48,066 bases of DNA from a virus. Its lineage: Duplodnaviria; Caudoviricetes. Every line of letters begins with the position of its first letter. The first letter of the stretch is position 1. The position numbers and the translations under genes were made by a program. Positions 37,738-48,066 of this stretch are shown one piece after another. The stretch lies in the IMG/VR virus record IMGVR_UViG_3300031857_000325, positions 1 to 48,066 of that record; one strand, written 5' to 3'. The notes beneath the pieces were generated by a model that made no database searches, was not told the origin of the DNA, and saw only the letters and a list, made by a program, of their open reading frames with translations.

Positions 37738-40700
37738 ATGGCTTGTAGTATATTAAGAAATAGTGAAACTAATGAAATAGAAAAAGTAATAGCTCCTAAT
37801 GGTAAGGAGTCTATACTTTATTCTAATATTCTAAATGTAATAGAAAATAAAGAAGAAGCTTTAAAAGCTTGGGCACAAGTTTACACGCCTTCTTTTAAAG
37901 CATGGTTTGGTGATTGGGAAAAAGAAGAAGGCTCTAAAGTTGTAGACTCTAATGGAGAACCTTTATTAGTATATCATGGTACTGGTAATAAGTTTGATGA
38001 ATTTGATAAAGCTTTAAGAGGAGAAACTACAGGAAGATCTACTACAGGAGAATTTGATTCTGAAAATGCTTTTTTCTTTTCTAATAATGAGAATGTCTCT
38101 TTTAATTATGCTATAATGGCTAGACAAAAAGAATTAGAATTTATTGCTAGTTCTCTTATTGATTTAAGATCTAGTTTTATTAGTTCAGAAAAAAAACAAG
38201 AAATCTATAATAATTTAAGAAAAGAATCTCCAAAGTTTGCTAGTTATATAGATGGTTTAAAATCTAAAGGGTTAAACCAACAACAAATTATGGAAAAAGT
38301 AACAGAACTTTCTATAAAGTATTCTAATTTAAATAGAGAGTATAGTAAAGGAGGGTCTATAAGTAATCCTAGACGTTATTATAGAAATGTAAAAGAACAT
38401 GTCTCTAGATTGATTGAAAATAAAGAAAATATATTACGAGGAAATTATGATGTAAAAAGTATATATGATGATAAAACATTAAGAACTACAGATAAAAATA
38501 ATAAAAATTTAGCTATTTATGATGATGGGCTTATTATTTTTAATGAGGAGGCTTTTCCAGAAATATCAAGTTTACAAAGAAAAAAAATTACCGAATTATC
38601 CTCTAGTGAGTTTGACAAGTTGATGGATGCTTTTTTAAAAACAGTTAAACAAGGTGAAGAAAAAATTGCAGAGGATTTAAAAAAAGGAGGATTTACTCCT
38701 GAAATAATGCCTGTTTTTTTAAATGCTAGAAATGTTGTTAAAAAAGATTTTGAAGGCGAACCTTTTGTTATGCAAATAGATGGAAAAGGTGCAGCAAATG
38801 AAGCTTCTAAATTAACTTTAAAAGCTAAAGAAGAAGGTAAAGATGGTGTAATATTTGAAAATATTAAAGACCCAGAACTTGCTAATAATTATGGCGTGTT
38901 TGAACCTAATCAAATTAAATCACTTTATAATAAAGGACAGTTTTCAGAAAAAACAAGTAATATTTATAATCAAGTTGAAAGTGTTCCTGCTTCAAGAGCT
39001 TCAAAAGAAACAATAGAGAAAGTTAAGAAGTTAATAGAAAACACTGGTGTTAGTATTTCTACATTACAAGATTATCTAAAAGGGAATCCAGATGTAAATG
39101 CTAAAGGAGTGGCAGGTCTTGCTGATCTTGTACAAGGAATTATTGCTATTGCTGAAGGTAAAGAAGATGTAGCTTTAACAGAAGAATACGTTCACGTAGC
39201 TACAGCTATATTAGAACAAGTGAATCCTCAATTAATTACAAATCTTATTGGTAAAATATCTCAATATAAAATATACAATATTGTATTAGAGAAATATAAA
39301 ACTAAAAAAGAATACCAACTTCCTAATGGTAAACCAGATATTCGTAAAATCAAGAAAGAAGCTGTAGATAAACTTATAGCAGAGATGATTATTAACATGT
39401 CTGAAGGCTCTACAGAGTTTCCTGAATTAATGGAAAGAGAAAAAAGAAACATTGTACAACAAATGTGGGATGCTATTCTTGATGCTATTAGAGTGTTTTA
39501 TAAAAAAGGAAATGTTAATTTATTTGAAGAAACAGCTCAAAGAATATCTGAAGGTAATTTAGGAGCTGGTGTAGAAGTTTTAACTGGAGAAGGGGGTGTG
39601 TTCTTTCAATTAGAAAAAAATGAACAGGTAGATTCTGCATTCAATAAGTTTAAAGACATGAATGACAGAATGAACTTTGTTGATGCTACAGAAACAGAGA
39701 AAAGACATTACACATTTGATGGAGAAAAACTTGATAAAACTGTAACAACATTAAAAGGTCCAAAGAATATAGAACAAACACCTGATAATATTGCTAAAAA
39801 GGAATGGGGAACAGAAGGACATAATTATTTAGAACAATACATTCGTACAAATCTTATTGATGAAAATGGATACGCTCTTCCTTTAGAACAAAGAAAAAAT
39901 ATAGAAATAGATAGTCCTATTAAACAAGAAGTTAAAAAAGCTATTAGAACATTTGCTGATGAGTTAATTTCTTCTTATAAACCTGGTACAAGATTTTTAA
40001 TTGAAACCATGGTGGCTAATTTGCAAACAAAAGAAAAGATTGGTTCTAGAATAGATTTCATGGCTTTTGAACCAATAGAAAATAGTAAAGGAGAACCAGA
40101 TGTTAGAATTGATATATTAGATTGGAAGTTTGCTGGTTTTAATACAGAAAAAAATAAAGATGTTCCTATATATAATCAGAAAGATTGGAAGGAACAAATG
40201 GGTGAATATTCTAAAATGGCATATAATTTAGGAATAGAAAGAAATCAATTAAGAAAAACTAGAATGATTCCTTTTGTTCTAAATTATAGATATGCTATTA
40301 AAGGAGATAAAGCATCTGGTCTTTACCCAAGTTCTGTTGAAATAGGTAAACTTGACACTACACAAGAAACAAATGTTTATTTACTTCCTGTAGCAACTGA
40401 TTTTGAATCTACAGGAAATGAAAAGGTAGATGGGTTATTGGCATCTTTAAGAAGATTGTACGATAAAATGTATATAGGATATGTTGCTCCTGAAGAAAAG
40501 TTTACAAAAATTACAAAACTAGATCAGTTGAGTCTTGCTATAAGAAACTTACATTTAAAATTAAACTTCTTTCCTATTTATGATGTTGCTGTTTCATTTT
40601 TAAATGATGTAAAAAATACAATAAAAGAATTTGAAGGAGTGGATTATACAACTCTTTCAAAGGAAGAATTGACAGCAAAACTCCAAAAAATAGAAGAATA

Positions 40701-43581
40701 TCAAAGAAGTGCTAATAAGTTTATTGGACTTGATGAAGTTTATCTTTCACACATTTCTAAAGAAAACATGTCTTCTGAAGAAAAGAAATTGTTAGATAAT
40801 TTTGGTAGAATAACTGTTTCTACAAAAAGAGCTTTAGAAGAAATGTTAGAACTACAGAAAGCTTATGTTGTACAATATGCAATAAAAGAAGGAATAGCTG
40901 AAACACCTGAAGATGTTTTACAAGCTGAAAGAGTTGTATCTAGTCTTGATAGAAACTTTTTAGAAACATCAAAACTTGCTCCTGCAATTATTAAATTAGC
41001 TGCTAAAGTTTATTTAAAAGCAAAGAGTGTTCTTAATATTAATTTTAGTAAAGCTGCTAATGATTATTCTAAAATACTAATTCCTTTAGAAGAAGAAGCA
41101 AGATCAAAAGGAAAATCTGCTTTTGAGATGATTGGTAGAGTTACAGATAAAGGACTTAGACTTATTAAAAAATTAGATTCTGAATTCTTAAAACAAATAA
41201 AAGAAGCTAAAGAAAAAGAAAATAAACAATTCTTATTAGATAATCTAGATGTTGAAAAATATAAATCATTAGTAGATCCTATTATTGAAAAAACACTTAA
41301 TGATTTAGATAGAACTCAATTCTCTTTAAACGAAGAAGAAGATGCTCAAAAAAGAGAATGGAGAAAACAACAAATAAAAAATACATTAGACATAACTTCT
41401 AAAACATTTGATGGGTATAAAAACTACACATTTGATAGTTATTATAAACAAGCAATGATAGAAGAAGGACATTATTCTAAAGATTATTTAGAAATGAGTA
41501 AAAGTGAGAATGCTTTAAGAATGTGGCAATTCTTTACAGCTCTAAATCAAAAAGCATATAAATTAGGATATTTAGATAAACAAGGACTTTCTTTTTTCCC
41601 ATTAGTAGAAGCTACCACTCTTCAAAAAATGTCACAAAGCGGAAACATTCTTAAAGAATCAAAAGATTTCTTTAAAGATATGTATAGCATCAATCCAAAT
41701 GAAGAGCAATTGTTTGCTAAAACAGATGATGAAACAGGAGAGTTAAAAAGAATGATTCCTAAATATTTTACAAGAACAAACAAAGATGTTAATCAGTTAT
41801 CTACAGATCTTAATAGAGTGGGACTTATATGGATTAAATCTCTAATGGAATATGAAACTACAAAAGAGTTAGAATATCCTTTATTGACAATGCACTCTGT
41901 TGAGCAATCTAAAGGAACATTAATAACTGATAATAAAGGAGATGTTATATTTGAAGGAAGTAAAGCTAAAGAAAGAGAAGAAAATGAAAATGCAATGTTT
42001 TTCCAATCTGTCCTTGATGATTACTTATATGGAATAACAGAAAATCTAAATTCTATGGGTAACATTTTAATGACATCAACAGCTGCAAAATTAAGCAAGA
42101 ATGAAGAAAAGTTAGAAGGAAATGTAATTTCTGCTAAGAAAGTGCTAAAAACTGGAGATACATATTTAAGAAGTCTTGCTCTTGGTTTAAAACCTTTATT
42201 AGGAATTGCTAACTTTGTTGGAGCAAACGTTCAATCTTTTATTTCTTCATCTGGAATTTATGGCAAAAGAGAATTTGTAAAAAATGTAGGTAGGGTGATT
42301 CTTCCTTTTGATAAAGGAATAAATCTTATTGAAAGAGCTTTAATTGATACATTAGTTCCATTAACAGGAGAAGATCCTTTAGTTATAAAACAAAGACTTA
42401 TTGCTGAGAAAAAATCTTATGCAAATTATTTATCTACATGGACTTTTTCAGATGTAATGATGACAACAAATTCATTTGGTGAAAAAAGAATTGAACTTGC
42501 TAACGCTCTTTCCATGATTGATAATGCAATTGTCATTAATGGAAAAATATTAAATATAAGACAATATTTAAAAGCAAAAGATAGAGAAGCTAAAAAAGGA
42601 ATGACATTTGAAGAAAGAAGAGCTTTAGAAAAATCTTTTGATCAAAGAGTTAAGGAATTACAACAAGGAGATAATACATTAAAGAAACTTTCTAAAATGG
42701 TGAATGATGAGCTAGTTATTGAAGGAGTTTCTGTTGAAGAATTAGCTAAGTTTAGAATGTCTGTAATAGATAATTCTAGAAACATAACTGGACAAATGAG
42801 TTATGAAGATAAAATGGGATTCAGAAGAGACACTCTTTTTAATTCATTTATGATGTTCAAGGGATGGATTCCTAAACAATTATCTGTTAGATATAAAGAC
42901 ATAACTAAAAACACAGCAACAGACGAATGGGAATATGGAAGATTTAGAGCTTTCTTTTCTACATTAAGACACATTGGAATCAAGAATATTACAGATCTTA
43001 GAGATATAACATTAGGAACTGATAAAGGATTGGCTTTGATTAATGAAATGTTAGAAAAAAAGAAAAGATTATATTTCTTAAAAACAGGAAAAGAATTAAA
43101 AATAACTCCTGAAGAATATCAAGATTTAATAAGAGCACAAGTTACTAATATGTATAAAGAACTTGCTCTTATTGTTGGTATAATTGGATTATTAATCACT
43201 GCTAAGATTATTGCTCCTGATGATGATGAAGATGATCTTACTAAAAATAGATATAAGTATTTTGCAAAAGCTGTTAATAAAATTTCAGATGAGCTTTTAT
43301 TCTATGTAAATCCTGCTTCTGCAGATGAAATGACAAGAGGATCTATTATTCCTTCTTTAGGAATATTAAGTAAAGTTGGAAGTTTATTAAAAGCACTACT
43401 TAAAGAAGTTTATTATACAGCTAGCGATGATGATAAAGCTGATAAAACTTACCCATTAAAATACTTCATTAATTTAATTCCTATAGGATCTCAAACATTA
43501 AACGAAGCTCTACCTTTAGTTAATCCAGAACTTGCAAAAGAAATGGGAGTTAGGGTGACATCAGAATCAAGAAGAAAATAA
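37738..43581 (+). CDS. Large putative ejection protein with N-terminal ART-like (polyvalent type) and PD-(D/E)XK-like domains
   Basis: FKAWFGDW...GEPLLVYHGT...FFFS...MPVFLNARN...DGVIF...FEPNQIKS; later GTEGH...RIDF...ILDWK...QMGEY. Confidence 0.7.
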   Translation: MACSILRNSETNEIEKVIAPNGKESILYSNILNVIENKEEALKAWAQVYTPSFKAWFGDWEKEEGSKVVDSNGEPLLVYHGTGNKFDEFDKALRGETTGRSTTGEFDSENAFFFSNNENVSFNYAIMARQKELEFIASSLIDLRSSFISSEKKQEIYNNLRKESPKFASYIDGLKSKGLNQQQIMEKVTELSIKYSNLNREYSKGGSISNPRRYYRNVKEHVSRLIENKENILRGNYDVKSIYDDKTLRTTDKNNKNLAIYDDGLIIFNEEAFPEISSLQRKKITELSSSEFDKLMDAFLKTVKQGEEKIAEDLKKGGFTPEIMPVFLNARNVVKKDFEGEPFVMQIDGKGAANEASKLTLKAKEEGKDGVIFENIKDPELANNYGVFEPNQIKSLYNKGQFSEKTSNIYNQVESVPASRASKETIEKVKKLIENTGVSISTLQDYLKGNPDVNAKGVAGLADLVQGIIAIAEGKEDVALTEEYVHVATAILEQVNPQLITNLIGKISQYKIYNIVLEKYKTKKEYQLPNGKPDIRKIKKEAVDKLIAEMIINMSEGSTEFPELMEREKRNIVQQMWDAILDAIRVFYKKGNVNLFEETAQRISEGNLGAGVEVLTGEGGVFFQLEKNEQVDSAFNKFKDMNDRMNFVDATETEKRHYTFDGEKLDKTVTTLKGPKNIEQTPDNIAKKEWGTEGHNYLEQYIRTNLIDENGYALPLEQRKNIEIDSPIKQEVKKAIRTFADELISSYKPGTRFLIETMVANLQTKEKIGSRIDFMAFEPIENSKGEPDVRIDILDWKFAGFNTEKNKDVPIYNQKDWKEQMGEYSKMAYNLGIERNQLRKTRMIPFVLNYRYAIKGDKASGLYPSSVEIGKLDTTQETNVYLLPVATDFESTGNEKVDGLLASLRRLYDKMYIGYVAPEEKFTKITKLDQLSLAIRNLHLKLNFFPIYDVAVSFLNDVKNTIKEFEGVDYTTLSKEELTAKLQKIEEYQRSANKFIGLDEVYLSHISKENMSSEEKKLLDNFGRITVSTKRALEEMLELQKAYVVQYAIKEGIAETPEDVLQAERVVSSLDRNFLETSKLAPAIIKLAAKVYLKAKSVLNINFSKAANDYSKILIPLEEEARSKGKSAFEMIGRVTDKGLRLIKKLDSEFLKQIKEAKEKENKQFLLDNLDVEKYKSLVDPIIEKTLNDLDRTQFSLNEEEDAQKREWRKQQIKNTLDITSKTFDGYKNYTFDSYYKQAMIEEGHYSKDYLEMSKSENALRMWQFFTALNQKAYKLGYLDKQGLSFFPLVEATTLQKMSQSGNILKESKDFFKDMYSINPNEEQLFAKTDDETGELKRMIPKYFTRTNKDVNQLSTDLNRVGLIWIKSLMEYETTKELEYPLLTMHSVEQSKGTLITDNKGDVIFEGSKAKEREENENAMFFQSVLDDYLYGITENLNSMGNILMTSTAAKLSKNEEKLEGNVISAKKVLKTGDTYLRSLALGLKPLLGIANFVGANVQSFISSSGIYGKREFVKNVGRVILPFDKGINLIERALIDTLVPLTGEDPLVIKQRLIAEKKSYANYLSTWTFSDVMMTTNSFGEKRIELANALSMIDNAIVINGKILNIRQYLKAKDREAKKGMTFEERRALEKSFDQRVKELQQGDNTLKKLSKMVNDELVIEGVSVEELAKFRMSVIDNSRNITGQMSYEDKMGFRRDTLFNSFMMFKGWIPKQLSVRYKDITKNTATDEWEYGRFRAFFSTLRHIGIKNITDLRDITLGTDKGLALINEMLEKKKRLYFLKTGKELKITPEEYQDLIRAQVTNMYKELALIVGIIGLLITAKIIAPDDDEDDLTKNRYKYFAKAVNKISDELLFYVNPASADEMTRGSIIPSLGILSKVGSLLKALLKEVYYTASDDDKADKTYPLKYFINLIPIGSQTLNEALPLVNPELAKEMGVRVTSESRRK

Positions 43582-43613
43582 TTATTCAAAACAACTTATA
43601 AATTTTTTTAAAC

Positions 43614-44006: not shown

Positions 44007-44078
44007 AATATTTTATTGTTTTTGCTATATTATGTCAATAATATAACTATAACATTTTATATTTCCAAATAAACAATT

Positions 44079-44086
44079 TACATTTG
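44079..44086 (+). promoter_or_regulatory. Candidate -7 promoter element for the lysis cassette
   Basis: TACATTTG (TAnnTTTG) in the intergenic gap; the -33 position has only TTTT (44055-44058). Confidence 0.5.
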
Positions 44087-44161
44087 TTATTTAATTAAAT
44101 ACACCAAAACCCAATCATTATGCATTGGGTATTTGTGTTTATTAATAAATCATTTAAAAAC

Positions 44162-44479
44162 ATGGCTCAAGCATTTGAACAACAAGTAGAAAAAGAATTA
44201 AAAAGCATGGATCAACGCCTACATGATCTAGAGGAGAAAATGACCTCTATAGATACAAAACTAACACAAGTTGTAGATGCGATATTGGGAAACTCACTAA
44301 CAAAAACTGGTGGGTTTGTTGCAGAGATAACTGATCTAAAAGAAAAAATAAAAGAATTAGAAGCTAAGCTTCAGAAACAAGAAGAGTTTAAAAAGAGATT
44401 TACCTGGACTGTAGGTATAATCATAGGGGTAGGTGTCTTGTTACAATACTTAACCACACTATATAGAAACATCAAATAA
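44162..44479 (+). CDS. Coiled-coil protein with a single C-terminal TM helix (holin/antiholin- or XhlA-like)
   Basis: Start reassigned from 44120 to the ATG at 44162 (A-rich context TTTAAAAACATG); coiled coil then FTWTVGIIIGVGVLLQYL; first gene of the lysis cassette. Confidence 0.6.
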   Translation: MAQAFEQQVEKELKSMDQRLHDLEEKMTSIDTKLTQVVDAILGNSLTKTGGFVAEITDLKEKIKELEAKLQKQEEFKKRFTWTVGIIIGVGVLLQYLTTLYRNIK

Positions 44480-44482
44480 TTT

Positions 44483-45229
44483 ATGAAAAATTTGTCAAAA
44501 GAAGAGCTATTGAGTAGACTCGAAGCAATTAATAGGAGTAATGCTATTATTTACTTTGATCTTGACGGTTATATTCTGGGTATGAATTCTATATTTTTAG
44601 TAACAATGGGTTATGAAGATGGAGACCACAAACAACTTATTGGAAAACATCATAGTATTTTTGTTAGTTATGAATATTCAAAATCAGATGAATACAAAAA
44701 GTTTTGGGAAACATTAAAAGATGGGAAGTTCTTTGAAGGTGAGTTTGAAAGAAAAAAAATAGATGGTAGTCCTATCTATTTACAAGCAACTTACAATCCT
44801 ATTTTTGATGAAAACAATAATATAACAAAAATAATGAAGATTGCTACTGACATTACTGAAACAGTAAATAGTAAAAATAAGGTAGATGCTCTCTCAAAAG
44901 ATTTGCAGATTGAATTAGAGAAGTCAGAACAACTAAAAAATGCAATCGAGAAAGAGAAAGATGCTGCTTTAAATGACTTAGATGTAATCATAAAAAAAGG
45001 TCAAAGCGAGTTAATAAAAGTGATTGTTAAATGTGCTTTGGCAGTTATAATAGGTGTTGGAATTGTAACCACTTTATTATATTGGGCAGCTATTATAACA
45101 AATAAAGAAACTCAAATAATTGGTTCAACTTGGAGTAATATGTTTAGTGTTTTATTAACAAATGCATTTTCAATAGTTGGTACAATTATGGGTATTAAAT
45201 ATGCTACACAAGAAAGTAATAATAAATAA
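44483..45229 (+). CDS. PAS-domain membrane protein (PAS - coiled coil - 2 TM)
   Basis: AINRSNAIIYFDLDG.I...N..F...MGY...LIGKHHSIFV...EYKKFWETL..G.FF.GEFER....G..IYLQATYNPIFD.....KIMKIATDITE is a complete chemoreceptor-type PAS/PAC; two hydrophobic helices at the C-terminus. Confidence 0.9.
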   Translation: MKNLSKEELLSRLEAINRSNAIIYFDLDGYILGMNSIFLVTMGYEDGDHKQLIGKHHSIFVSYEYSKSDEYKKFWETLKDGKFFEGEFERKKIDGSPIYLQATYNPIFDENNNITKIMKIATDITETVNSKNKVDALSKDLQIELEKSEQLKNAIEKEKDAALNDLDVIIKKGQSELIKVIVKCALAVIIGVGIVTTLLYWAAIITNKETQIIGSTWSNMFSVLLTNAFSIVGTIMGIKYATQESNNK

Positions 45230-45236
45230 AATAATT

Positions 45237-45491
45237 ATGGGATTTTGGAAAGAATTAATTAGTGATGACAATAACATAAATGAAAAATCATTCGTTGGTG
45301 TTATTTCTTTTTTCATGATGGTACTTGCATTTTTTGTAGATATAGTTACAGGAATATGGGGTGTCAAATTAGTAGTTGAAGAATTTATTTTCAACGGTTT
45401 TTTAATGCTAACATCAGTGGCTTTTGGTATAGCTACAGCAGGTAAAATTTTTAATAAAAATAAAAAACAACAAGAAGATGCAACTGAGTAA
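45237..45491 (+). CDS. Putative class II holin (2 TM)
   Basis: Start reassigned from 45177 to the ATG at 45237, just after the upstream stop; 84 aa, two TM segments, charged C-terminus; overlaps the endolysin start. Confidence 0.65.
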   Translation: MGFWKELISDDNNINEKSFVGVISFFMMVLAFFVDIVTGIWGVKLVVEEFIFNGFLMLTSVAFGIATAGKIFNKNKKQQEDATE

Positions 45492-45945
45492 ACACTTATC
45501 ACTTGCTGAAGTTACAAGAAGTGAAACAGCAAAAAGAAATGGTATTAGTAATATGCCAACTGAAGAGCATGTAAAGAATTTCAAATTACTTGCTGAAAAG
45601 ATATTTGAACCAATTAGAGAACACTTTAAAGTGCCTATCCATATATCAAGTGGATATAGAAGCAAGGCTCTTAATACTGCTATCAAAGGAAGTTTGTCTT
45701 CTCAGCATTGTTCTGGTGAAGCGATTGATATTGATATGGATGGTAGTACAAATGGGGTTACTAATAAAATGGTGTTTGATTACATCAAGGACAACCTAAA
45801 TTTTGATCAACTTATTTATGAGTTTGGAAATGCTAACAATCCTGATTGGGTTCATGTATCATACGAATCAACTGGTAAACAACGTAAGCAAGTTTTGAAA
45901 GCTATCAAACAAGGTGGAAAAACAACTTATGCTCCTTATAAATAA
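45478..45945 (+). CDS. Endolysin, peptidase M15 (Zn D-Ala-D-Ala peptidase fold)
   Basis: SSGYRS..LN, SQHCSGEAID (SxHxxxxAxD) and WVHVSY provide the H/D/H zinc ligands. Confidence 0.88.
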   Translation: MQLSKHLSLAEVTRSETAKRNGISNMPTEEHVKNFKLLAEKIFEPIREHFKVPIHISSGYRSKALNTAIKGSLSSQHCSGEAIDIDMDGSTNGVTNKMVFDYIKDNLNFDQLIYEFGNANNPDWVHVSYESTGKQRKQVLKAIKQGGKTTYAPYK

Positions 45946-45951
45946 TAACAA

Positions 45952-46089
45952 ATGGCAAAAGTAACCAACACAGTAGAAAAAGTAGCTAAACCAAAGGTTA
46001 ATCGCCCAGGGGTGCATGCTAAATCTCAAACATCAAGTTTGAAGACTAGTAAAAATTACAAAAAACTTTATAGAGGTCAGGGTAGATAA
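45952..46089 (+). CDS. Small basic protein (45 aa; absent from the ORF track)
   Basis: MAKVTNTVEKVAKPKVNRPGVHAKSQTSSLKTSKNYKKLYRGQGR; fills the gap exactly and its stop overlaps the next ATG (TAATG). Confidence 0.75.
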   Translation: MAKVTNTVEKVAKPKVNRPGVHAKSQTSSLKTSKNYKKLYRGQGR

Positions 46090-46388: not shown

Positions 46389-46672
46389 TACAAATAATAA
46401 ATAAAAACGGTGAAAATTTATCTGAACTAGGAGAGTTAGTTGTTATAGATAAAAATGGTTTTATTAAAACTGTAGGAGGAGGAAGTGGTCCAACAACAGG
46501 ATATATTAGAAGAAACTCTATGTTTTCTAATATTAATTATTGTGGATTTGCTCCAACAGGTTCATTAGAAACTGATGCTGTATGGACAGTGACAAAAATC
46601 ACTGTAGCTTTAAATGGAACTGTAACAACACAAGTCTTTAATAATGTAACTTGGACATCTGTCCCAATTTAA
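46385..46672 (+). CDS. Hypothetical virion-associated protein
   Basis: 95 aa; ATGA overlap; GGGSG linker then a YCGFAP.GS.ETDAVW..TKI module. Confidence 0.6.
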   Translation: MIQIINKNGENLSELGELVVIDKNGFIKTVGGGSGPTTGYIRRNSMFSNINYCGFAPTGSLETDAVWTVTKITVALNGTVTTQVFNNVTWTSVPI

Positions 46673-46684
46673 AAATAAAATAAT

Positions 46685-46981
46685 ATGCCAATAGTAAGTA
46701 CAAACCCAATAGAAGTAGATGGTAAAATCTATCCAAATTTCTTAATCAACCTATCAATGTCTCCATTATTAGGAAATGATAAGGTGGGACAAAGTGTTGC
46801 TTTACGTTTAACTCCTGAAAGAGTTGAAGATGGTGTTTCATATCAATTACAAGAAGAAGCAAAACACATACACATTCTAGATGTTTATAAAAACATTGAG
46901 AATGGAGATGAAGATTTACAGAAAGCTGTAACAAAAATAAGTGAAGCATTACAAGAATTCATAATAGCTAAAGGATTATAA
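46685..46981 (+). CDS. Hypothetical protein
   Basis: 98 aa, co-oriented, A-rich start context; lies directly before the spike gene. Confidence 0.6.
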   Translation: MPIVSTNPIEVDGKIYPNFLINLSMSPLLGNDKVGQSVALRLTPERVEDGVSYQLQEEAKHIHILDVYKNIENGDEDLQKAVTKISEALQEFIIAKGL

Positions 46982-46984
46982 CAA

Positions 46985-48066
46985 ATGGCTAATTATAGAG
47001 CGATAGCAAATGGTAATTGGAGCAGTTTAGCAATATGGGAAGATGATTCTTTAGGATACTTCTCTACATCTTCTGTATTACCTACAACTGCTGATAATGT
47101 TTACGCAAATAACTTCACTGTTACTATTGACGGAACAAGAAATGCCTTTACAATAAGAAACACTGCTTTTACACCTCCTACTAATTTAGGTGCAATGTCT
47201 ATTCCAGAAATGACAAGTAATACTACACCAAGTGGTGCTGCTATTGCAAGTAGTGTAGGTGGTGGGGCTAATTTTAATCAAATTTGGTTTGCTTACGATA
47301 GATTAACAACAAGAGGGTGGCAATCAAGTGTTGCTAACACAGGTTGGTTAGGATATAATTTTCCAACAGGAAAAATAATAAAAAGATATGGATTTTTTAG
47401 TTTTTCTACTAATTCTTCGAATCCAAGAACTTGGACTTTTGAAGGAAGTAATGATGGTTCAACTTGGACAACATTAGATACACAAACAAATTTTGTTACA
47501 GGAGTTTCTACTTTTTATTCTTTTGATATTTCTGCGAATACAACATCATACACATATTATAGAATTAATATTACTGCGGTTCAAACATTAGGACTACAAC
47601 CTGCAATAGTAGAACTTGAAATGTCAGAGGTTACAAACCTATACGGAAGCATTGTTGCAGGTGGTGGTTTTACCTTTGCTAATGGTGGTAATTTAACTTG
47701 TTCTGCTCCTACTAATAGTGTTTTTAATAGAGCGGTTGCAAATGTTTATTGCTTAACCTTTGATTTACCAAGTGGACAAAGTGCTACGTTTAATGGAAGT
47801 GCTAATAGTCCAGGTTCAATAGATAATGGTAAATCTATTTTAGTTCAAAATACAGGAACTTTTAATATTGTTGGTAATTATGGATTGACTAATGGAGCTC
47901 AACTTGGTAGAAATACAATATTAGTAAATGGCTCTACTACAATTAATATAATAGGAAATATAACAAGCTCTCAATCAAGTGTGGTAAATGCAATTTATAC
48001 CTTATTTGTAAGTGGTGGAAATCCAATTATAAGCATAACAGGAAATGTAAGTGGAGGTAATACAGG
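46985..48066 (+). CDS. 3'-truncated tail spike/receptor-binding protein with discoidin (F5/8 type C)-like domain; absent from the ORF track
   Basis: Open from the ATG at 46985 to the window end. MANYRAIANGNWSS..W...LPTTADNVYANNFTVTID, then GWLGYNF...PRTWTFEGSNDGSTWTTLDT...YTYYRINIT, then Gly/Asn/Thr 'I.I.GN' beta-solenoid-like repeats. Confidence 0.8.
   Translation, partial: MANYRAIANGNWSSLAIWEDDSLGYFSTSSVLPTTADNVYANNFTVTIDGTRNAFTIRNTAFTPPTNLGAMSIPEMTSNTTPSGAAIASSVGGGANFNQIWFAYDRLTTRGWQSSVANTGWLGYNFPTGKIIKRYGFFSFSTNSSNPRTWTFEGSNDGSTWTTLDTQTNFVTGVSTFYSFDISANTTSYTYYRINITAVQTLGLQPAIVELEMSEVTNLYGSIVAGGGFTFANGGNLTCSAPTNSVFNRAVANVYCLTFDLPSGQSATFNGSANSPGSIDNGKSILVQNTGTFNIVGNYGLTNGAQLGRNTILVNGSTTINIIGNITSSQSSVVNAIYTLFVSGGNPIISITGNVSGGNT

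What the first reader, a model, noticed from the sequence alone, without database searches (positions are those of the whole stretch)
44162..45945. PAS sensor-membrane protein inside the lysis cassette: candidate signal-responsive lysis regulator
Seen: four tightly spaced genes (coiled-coil/1-TM protein, PAS-coiled-coil-2TM protein, 2-TM holin-like protein, M15 endolysin) behind a candidate TAnnTTTG promoter. The PAS domain (~44510-44860) is complete but has no kinase, MCP or GGDEF output, only ~50 aa of coiled coil and two TM helices. Established: this PAS type occurs in soluble chemoreceptors such as AerC and BdlA, and related FAD-binding PAS domains (Aer, NifL) use a conserved Trp that appears retained here (KKFWETL). 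Inference: a captured redox/oxygen/energy sensor is wired to a holin or antiholin so that lysis timing follows host metabolic state. I know of no characterised phage system with this layout.
Basis: partly seen in the sequence, partly recalled or inferred. Interest (0 to 1): 0.92.

Follow-up and report, generated by a model that had tools for sequence, protein, structure and literature searches.

The report
Phage sensor-hairpin protein among lysis genes
An uncultured crAss-like phage carries, among its cell-bursting genes, an optional protein that links a probable flavin redox sensor through one rigid helix to a virus-only membrane hairpin, so it may tune when the host bursts, which is untested.

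Summary
Observation confirmed. In a crAss-like phage, gene 44483-45229 encodes a complete PAS domain, one continuous helix and two membrane helices, between an XhlA-like gene, a small 2-TM gene and an M15 endolysin. The PAS keeps the His and Trp of AerC-type FAD sensors. The output is not missing: the hairpin is the output. Its second helix is invariant in 92 of 92 relatives while synonymous sites vary, and the PAS-to-membrane distance is fixed in 212 of 213. Other phages drive the same hairpin by a second PAS, a GAF, or a kinase plus receiver, where the stalk changes in 7-residue steps (127 of 137). An endolysin lies within 1.5 kb in 27 of 30 PAS-hairpin lineages, yet the gene is optional (5 of 58 sister cassettes). 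The promoter box is conserved (51 of 57), and the four genes moved recently as one block. The hairpin is almost confined to viruses and matches no family or cultured phage searched. Best reading (0.55): a signal-gated membrane modulator of lysis timing. Binding to the neighbouring holin-like gene is unshown, and that gene is not a proven holin. This scan noted the family before in other genomes.

The parts
44023..44033 (+). Upstream motif TGCTATATTAT, about 50 nt before the promoter box; possible second promoter or regulator site
   Evidence: Only exact match in the window (7 matches at 1 mismatch, 3.2 expected); seen by eye upstream of gene A in many relatives, not counted
44079..44086 (+). 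Bacteroidota-type promoter box TACATTTG (TAnnTTTG; consensus recalled)
   Evidence: position, chance-level genome-wide; 51 of 57 upstream regions against 9.6 shuffled
44109..44130 (.). Stem-loop in the leader, terminator-like on both strands
   Evidence: folding z-score only -1.4; similar stems visible in several relatives. Function open
44162..44479 (+). Gene A: 105 aa coiled coil plus one C-terminal TM; XhlA-like, first gene of the lysis cassette in this clade
   Evidence: phrog_937 E 1.5e-6; Pfam XhlA E 0.003, below cut-off; 106 viral loci; start chosen from homologues
44483..45229 (+). PAS - signalling helix - two-TM hairpin protein, 248 aa
44510..44860 (+). PAS domain (residues 10-126), AerC-like FAD-type pattern: His57 (44651-44653), Trp75 (44705-44707), Arg90 at the Asn site
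   Evidence: PMC10468136 passages
44855..45100 (+). One continuous helix: coiled-coil stalk (125-176) running into TM1 (177-206); length fixed across the family
45110..45208 (+). Invariant second membrane helix (T210-T242) with a Ser/Thr/Asn/Gly face and a GxxxG motif (G233-G237)
45237..45491 (+). 84-aa two-TM protein, virus-only family of lysis cassettes; candidate holin or holin accessory
   Evidence: relative beside endolysin and an annotated holin in Flavobacterium phage immuto
45478..45945 (+). Peptidase M15 endolysin, 155 aa
44216..45900 (+). Block shared nearly unchanged with the otherwise diverged phage L001 (12 differences in 1,685 nt): recent transfer of the whole cassette

Best explanation
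The protein is a one-piece, signal-gated membrane effector that modulates lysis timing. SHOWN by sequence analysis: cytoplasmic PAS with the FAD-type His/Trp, a stalk of fixed length, a virus-restricted hairpin whose second helix is invariant, late-type cassette position, optional presence, and interchangeable inputs (one or two PAS, GAF, kinase plus receiver). INFERRED: it is made late with the lysis genes, dimerises through PAS and stalk, binds FAD and reads host redox or energy state; the stalk rotates TM1 and repacks TM2; the TM2 state then advances or delays membrane permeabilisation. For the last step I favour self-assembly of TM2 into a small gated leak or a tight bundle (about 0.25), then binding to a holin (about 0.15), then binding to a conserved host envelope protein (about 0.15). 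The direction (hasten or delay) cannot be told.
For: Endolysin within 1.5 kb in 27 of 30 PAS-hairpin lineages clustered at 90% identity, and directly adjacent in 15 of 30, with four unrelated endolysin families and varied gene orders, in contigs up to 272 kb with unlike flanking genes. Seen from the other side, a hairpin gene lies near 14 of 39 distinct M15 endolysins of this type and 5 of 36 GH19 ones. Four-gene block transferred intact. TM2 invariant in 92 of 92 with synonymous heterozygosity 0.44; dN/dS about 0.01 against 0.14 for PAS and TM1; exact in 118 of the top 120 database hits. Distance last PAS to W217 is 115 residues in 212 of 213; in kinase-driven forms the stalk varies in steps of 7 in 127 of 137, the signature of phase-dependent coiled-coil signalling (established knowledge, recalled). 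Kinase-driven forms have a receiver gene within 1.5 kb in 44 of 44 and a kinase in 42 of 44, and an endolysin within 3 kb in 18 of 30. Polar and small residues S215, S218, N219, S222, T226, S230, G233, G237 fall within a 120-degree arc.
Against: All evidence is contextual; nothing shows expression, cofactor or a lysis phenotype. Lysis cassettes in these phages are slots for many optional membrane genes, so position alone may reflect late expression and recombination. 3 of 30 PAS-hairpin lineages lack a nearby endolysin, one among replication genes (L068); 11 of 27 kinase-driven lineages have none within 4 kb, and L158 and L159 sit by topoisomerase or unrelated genes. The loci are the best 80 per scan, biased to close relatives, and no formal null for adjacency was computed. 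Most sister cassettes do without it (53 of 58). A role of depolarisation in triggering canonical holins is disputed in PMC8385771 (passages).
Confidence: 0.55

Rival explanations
1. A sensor-gated membrane effector that acts on something other than lysis: superinfection exclusion, receptor or motility shutdown, or slowing of host metabolism. It rides in the lysis cassette because that is the late-expressed, recombination-prone slot for membrane genes.
For: Hairpin genes without lysis neighbours exist in both classes. TM2 is invariant although the neighbouring 2-TM proteins are only 29-88% identical to the window's (5th-95th percentile) and fall into two subtypes, which suits a fixed host target. 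The same slot holds other optional genes.
Against: The lysis link persists across four endolysin families, many gene orders and unlike phage groups; exclusion genes of lytic phages are typically expressed early (recalled), while this one is behind the cassette promoter.
Confidence: 0.27
2. The hairpin is itself a holin or pinholin whose triggering is held by the PAS-stalk dimer; the 84-aa neighbour and gene A are accessory.
For: Amphipathic TM2 with a small-residue face and GxxxG; no annotated holin in the window's cassette; directly adjacent to an endolysin in 15 of 30 lineages.
Against: Optional: cassettes with gene A directly followed by the 2-TM gene and endolysin exist (L175, L223, L224). 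It co-occurs with Phage_holin_4_1 genes (10 of 19 hairpin-bearing endolysin loci). Holins are usually variable, not invariant (recalled). No holin family match.
Confidence: 0.1
3. The PAS domain does not sense; it is a dimerisation or folding cap for a constitutive membrane accessory protein.
For: No ligand shown; PAS dN/dS (0.14) equals that of TM1; the FAD Asn is absent.
Against: His, Trp and Arg kept in 385 of 385 PAS repeats; inputs are exchanged for GAF, another PAS type or a kinase-receiver pair; fixed stalk length and heptad steps.
Confidence: 0.08

Closest known systems
T4 lysis inhibition: holin T with antiholins RI (periplasmic) and RIII (cytoplasmic); PMC11413866 and PMC8385771, passages read
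   Same: Accessory phage proteins couple a signal to lysis timing at the inner membrane.
   Different: T4 senses superinfecting DNA in the periplasm through a holin-antiholin complex; here the sensor is cytoplasmic, probably flavin-based, fused to its own membrane hairpin with a three-residue periplasmic loop. No sequence relation found; holin T appears in the fold search only at E 0.04-0.06.
AerC/BdlA/McpS-type soluble multi-PAS chemoreceptors (FAD-binding PAS cluster 9, PMC10468136; PMC8694187), passages read
   Same: PAS subtype with His and Trp and no Asn; tandem PAS repeats; nearest cellular relatives are multi-PAS MCPs and GGDEF/EAL proteins at a median 44% identity.
   Different: No MCP signalling domain; the JGI label 'methyl-accepting chemotaxis protein' on homologues comes from the PAS only.
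Pinholins such as phage 21 S21 (recalled; only a reference title seen)
   Same: Two TM helices, the second with a polar small-residue face.
   Different: No sensor domain in pinholins; they need SAR endolysins, whereas the M15 enzyme here has no hydrophobic segment; no homology detected.
Sensor-2TM effectors of bacterial immunity such as SAVED-2TM (recalled)
   Same: Cytoplasmic sensor joined to a two-helix membrane effector.
   Different: Encoded by the virus, in lysis cassettes; only a weak PADLOC hit over the stalk and TM1 (E 0.018).

Membership tests
FAD-binding PAS cluster 9 (AerC type) | PAS fold | tested here: met
   Pfam PAS models above cut-off; model and Foldseek hits MmoS 3EWK rmsd 2.4 over 120, NifL 2GJ3
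FAD-binding PAS cluster 9 (AerC type) | Trp on the F-alpha helix | tested here: met
   W75 aligns with MmoS and Aer Trp; kept in 385 of 385 repeats
FAD-binding PAS cluster 9 (AerC type) | His kept, Asn not required | tested here: met
   H57 aligns with the Aer His; the Asn site is R90; pattern as in PMC10468136 passages
FAD-binding PAS cluster 9 (AerC type) | Clusters with AerC sequences | not tested
   The paper's supplementary sequence sets were not read; assignment is by residue pattern
FAD-binding PAS cluster 9 (AerC type) | Binds FAD and responds to redox | not testable with these tools
   Needs spectroscopy
LOV domain | Flavin-adduct cysteine | tested here: not met
   The Cys of phototropin LOV1 aligns with H57
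Methyl-accepting chemoreceptor | MCP signalling domain | tested here: not met
   No PF00015 hit; the protein ends 6 residues after TM2
Holin (for the hairpin) | Small TM module next to an endolysin | tested here: met
Holin (for the hairpin) | Homology to a known holin family | tested here: inconclusive
   No Pfam, PHROG or PDB sequence hit; holins are too diverse for absence to exclude
Holin (for the hairpin) | Forms lesions that release the endolysin | not testable with these tools
   Needs complementation
Holin (for the 84-aa gene) | Homology to a known holin family | tested here: inconclusive
   1 of 55 relatives hits a PHROG holin at E 0.046; Atlas lead to DUF2644, score 0.91, on 38% of members
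Antiholin (T4 RI/RIII type) | Binds a specific holin and delays lysis | not testable with these tools
   Needs pull-down and lysis curves
Antiholin (T4 RI/RIII type) | Strict co-occurrence with one holin type | tested here: inconclusive
   Hairpin with the 2-TM family in 23 of 24 anchored loci against 58 of 109 without hairpin; only the gene A set discriminates (5 of 5 against 12 of 53, p 0.0014, lineages not independent); both subtypes occur
crAss-like phage (Crassvirales) | Muzzle and ring tail proteins, block of very large genes | tested here: met
   PF25731 E 1e-36, PF24228, PF25702; ORFs of 4,694 and 1,947 aa
crAss-like phage (Crassvirales) | Terminase, portal and capsid phylogeny | not tested
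   Record is 41% complete; these genes were not identified

The most novel reading that the evidence does not exclude
Aquatic phages of Bacteroidota-type hosts share a dedicated signalling output, a two-helix membrane hairpin, that they wire to redox (PAS), GAF, kinase-receiver and possibly light (rhodopsin-like) inputs to decide when the host bursts. The window holds the compact one-component form. This would be active, environment-gated lysis control by a virus-encoded signal transduction system.
Probability: 0.45. Interest if true: 0.93.

Novelty: categorically new. Interest (0 to 1): 0.8.

Why it matters
Lysis timing is thought to be set by holin accumulation, with superinfection as the one well-studied external signal. 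A widespread phage module that reads host redox or energy state and acts at the membrane would show that lytic phages can schedule release by host physiology, which bears on burst dynamics in lakes and seas. It would also supply a new, portable two-helix output for PAS, GAF and two-component inputs. The four-gene, 1.8-kb cassette makes the question directly testable in a laboratory strain.

Tried and rejected
Complex prediction of two copies of residues 150-248 with the 84-aa protein: no answer, score 0.00 in both runs, controls not folded, partner fold uncertain; not evidence either way. RNA evidence: one run with share 0.06; it gave a single 168-nt contig over 45075-45207 with adapter-like ends, not evidence of expression. 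Fold search of a kinase-driven hairpin model: only generic helical hairpins, best Z 8.8. A recalled likeness of the TM2 GTIMG motif to MotA/ExbB helices: no PDB hit for the hairpin profile at E 10, none meaningful for the second profile, no such Pfam family among the 25 of 134 shown, and the predicted orientation is opposite; dropped. Hairpin and 84-aa family are not homologous (probability 2%). Origin of the PAS from the phage kinase: PAS repeats of hairpin proteins form one group (support 98) whose sister is two phage kinase PAS at only 84, in a quick tree of 97 rows because the careful search did not finish; 50% pairwise identity is not above the best cellular value (54%); unresolved. Sigma-70 scan uninformative (21 found, 16.4 expected). 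Atlas search of the hairpin: best score 0.89, viral clusters only, lead level. The 4,687 hits include unrelated PAS proteins and were not used as family size. Several of the 102 profile hits look chimeric or truncated, and one (P0329) is low-complexity; they were not used for architecture claims. Literature searches (listings only) found no description; the library lacks most subscription papers.

Full report
Setting. The window is a 41% complete virus record, about 29-30% G+C, with crAss muzzle and ring proteins and ORFs of 4,694 and 1,947 aa: a crAss-like phage. The host is inferred to be Bacteroidota from the promoter type (recalled consensus) and from a relative of the 84-aa gene in Flavobacterium phage immuto.

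Observation. The four genes are as described. The 248-aa protein folds as PAS (21-123), one helix (125-206) and a second helix (211-245); with no signal segment before the PAS, the sensor and C-terminus are inferred to be cytoplasmic with a three-residue periplasmic turn. The TAnnTTTG box at 44079 is chance-level by count but is present upstream of gene A in 51 of 57 distinct regions against 9.6 after base shuffling, so the promoter guess holds.

Sensor. The nearest solved sequences are MmoS PAS-A, phototropin LOV1 and Aer. W75 and H57 match the Aer Trp and His, the Asn site is R90, and the LOV Cys is absent. PMC10468136 (passages; supplements not read) gives Trp plus His without Asn for cluster 9, which contains AerC; PMC8694187 (passages) predicts FAD for the related BdlA and McpS domains, although haem was reported for BdlA (recalled). 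The His, Phe-Trp and Arg pattern is present in 385 of 385 PAS repeats of hairpin proteins. Cellular relatives are multi-PAS chemoreceptors and GGDEF/EAL proteins at a median 44% identity. FAD binding is a prediction.

The output is the hairpin. In 92 distinct coding sequences, T210-T242 is invariant while its synonymous sites vary as freely as elsewhere (heterozygosity 0.44); dN/dS is about 0.01 against 0.14 for PAS and TM1 on 46 of the 92. One search pattern lay in this helix, so part of it is selected for, but 118 of the top 120 hits of the independent protein search are also exact. Small and polar residues line one face. The distance from the last PAS to W217 is 115 residues in 212 of 213 proteins. 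Of 87 distinct PAS-hairpin ORFs away from contig starts, 55 have two PAS and 32 one.

The hairpin takes other inputs. Earlier notes of this scan suggested this and I tested it. A profile search of 1.84 billion representatives gave 102 hits, among them GAF-hairpin (P0253), another PAS type (P0255) and a class of 190-240 aa proteins with a small unknown N-terminal domain. After clustering at 90% and requiring 1.5 kb flanks, 44 of 44 have a receiver gene and 42 of 44 a histidine kinase within 1.5 kb, and the stalk length changes in steps of seven in 127 of 137 sequences. In six loci a bacteriorhodopsin-like gene lies directly upstream. A fixed or heptad-stepped stalk between interchangeable sensors and a constant membrane element is what a signal-transmitting coiled coil predicts.

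Range. 271 viral loci match the whole protein and 281 the hairpin. Among 185,579 prokaryote genomes only 5 loci were found, all on MAG contigs of 3-32 kb; one has the length and match coordinates of viral locus L053 and another carries T4-type topoisomerase-like genes. No full-length or hairpin match exists among 50,697 GenBank phage records, and no Pfam, PHROG or PDB family fits.

Link to lysis. From 326 hairpin ORFs, 206 distinct, clustering and flank filters left 30 PAS-hairpin lineages: 27 have an endolysin within 1.5 kb, 15 directly adjacent, 21 have the 2-TM family. The endolysin profiles were built from neighbours annotated separately as GH19, M15, GH24 lysozyme, amidase and phrog_3000/33083. 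Misses: L068 among replication genes, L104 among unknown membrane proteins, L060 with the 2-TM gene only. For kinase-driven forms the link is weaker: 18 of 30 within 3 kb, and 11 of 27 with none within 4 kb. Anchoring on neighbours shows the gene is optional: 5 of 58 distinct gene A cassettes (7 of 80 before filtering), 14 of 39 M15 loci, 5 of 36 GH19 loci. L001 shares 44216-45900 with only 12 differences while the upstream gene differs at 105 of 393 positions and 42400-43599 is 59-76% identical: the four genes travelled together recently.

Partner. The hairpin accompanies the 2-TM family in 23 of 24 anchored loci against 58 of 109, but only the gene A set discriminates and lineages are not independent. 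It goes with both subtypes of that family, whose members are 29-88% identical to the window's. An invariant helix beside a variable neighbour points to self-association or a conserved host target rather than a co-evolving holin pair (inference). In phage immuto the 2-TM relative sits beside an endolysin and a separately annotated holin, so its own role is open.

Mechanism and verdict. Most likely (0.55) a late, FAD-based redox or energy sensor that switches a membrane hairpin and thereby shifts lysis time; rivals are a non-lysis membrane function (0.27), the hairpin as the holin itself (0.10), and a non-sensing PAS (0.08). The closest known system is T4 lysis inhibition (PMC11413866, PMC8385771; passages), which senses periplasmic DNA and is unrelated. 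Eight searches (listings only) found no description; subscription papers and bioRxiv supplements were outside reach. The module is rated categorically new as a virus-encoded signalling output, with function untested; interest 0.8. This scan reported the family before in other genomes (look-alikes in 27 windows of 24 genomes).

Noticed in passing
L273:5423-6004, L288:5415-5993, L337:737-1318, L357:5423-6010, L361:12-362 (partial), L363:459-1046: A short (about 193 aa) bacteriorhodopsin-like gene (PF01036, E 1e-13 and 4e-12) with the helix-G D-x-x-x-K pattern (motif recalled) lies directly upstream of the hairpin gene, after kinase, receiver and a 165-aa membrane gene: possibly a light input on a tailed phage.
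   Followed up: partly
L181:3325-4415 (also L182-L184, L186, L189, L190): The same slot between gene A and the 2-TM gene holds a 129-aa multi-TM gene and a 233-aa TM-4HB_MCP_1-TM protein (PF12729, E 2e-10): a periplasmic sensor with no catalytic output, a second sensor type in these lysis cassettes.
   Followed up: partly
L241:4132-4320 and 80 similar ORFs: A 62-66 aa membrane protein with a G-x-C-P motif, weakly YgaP-like (E 0.03), precedes the kinase in many kinase-receiver-hairpin operons.
   Followed up: partly
window 45945-45952 versus L001:6447-7158: The window lacks the two-gene spanin-like pair that L001 carries after the endolysin, and also the 203-aa TM gene that takes its place in other cassettes; how it breaks the outer membrane is unclear.
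   Followed up: partly
window 37738-43581: The 1,947-aa protein has an ART-PolyVal ADP-ribosyltransferase-like domain at its N-terminus (E 9e-14), split by an insert.
   Followed up: no
window 44023-44033 and 44109-44130: A second conserved upstream motif and a leader stem-loop, both seen in relatives; possible late promoter and attenuator.
   Followed up: partly
window 46600-47199 versus L001: A second near-identical tract (96-100% per 100 nt) shared with L001 over two small genes and the start of the tail-fibre-like gene: another recent exchange.
   Followed up: no
L155, L157, L104: PAS-hairpin genes in contigs packed with small proteins that begin or end with one membrane helix; an unfamiliar virus group, two binned into MAGs.
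   Followed up: no
L158:1557-6255: Two kinases, an exported 245-aa protein, a receiver and a hairpin gene directly before T4-type topoisomerase-like genes: a multi-input version away from lysis genes.
   Followed up: partly
L040:7190-9439, L055:3475-4569: Neighbouring genes include a TonB-dependent receptor-like protein and a polyphosphate kinase 2 on viral contigs.
   Followed up: no
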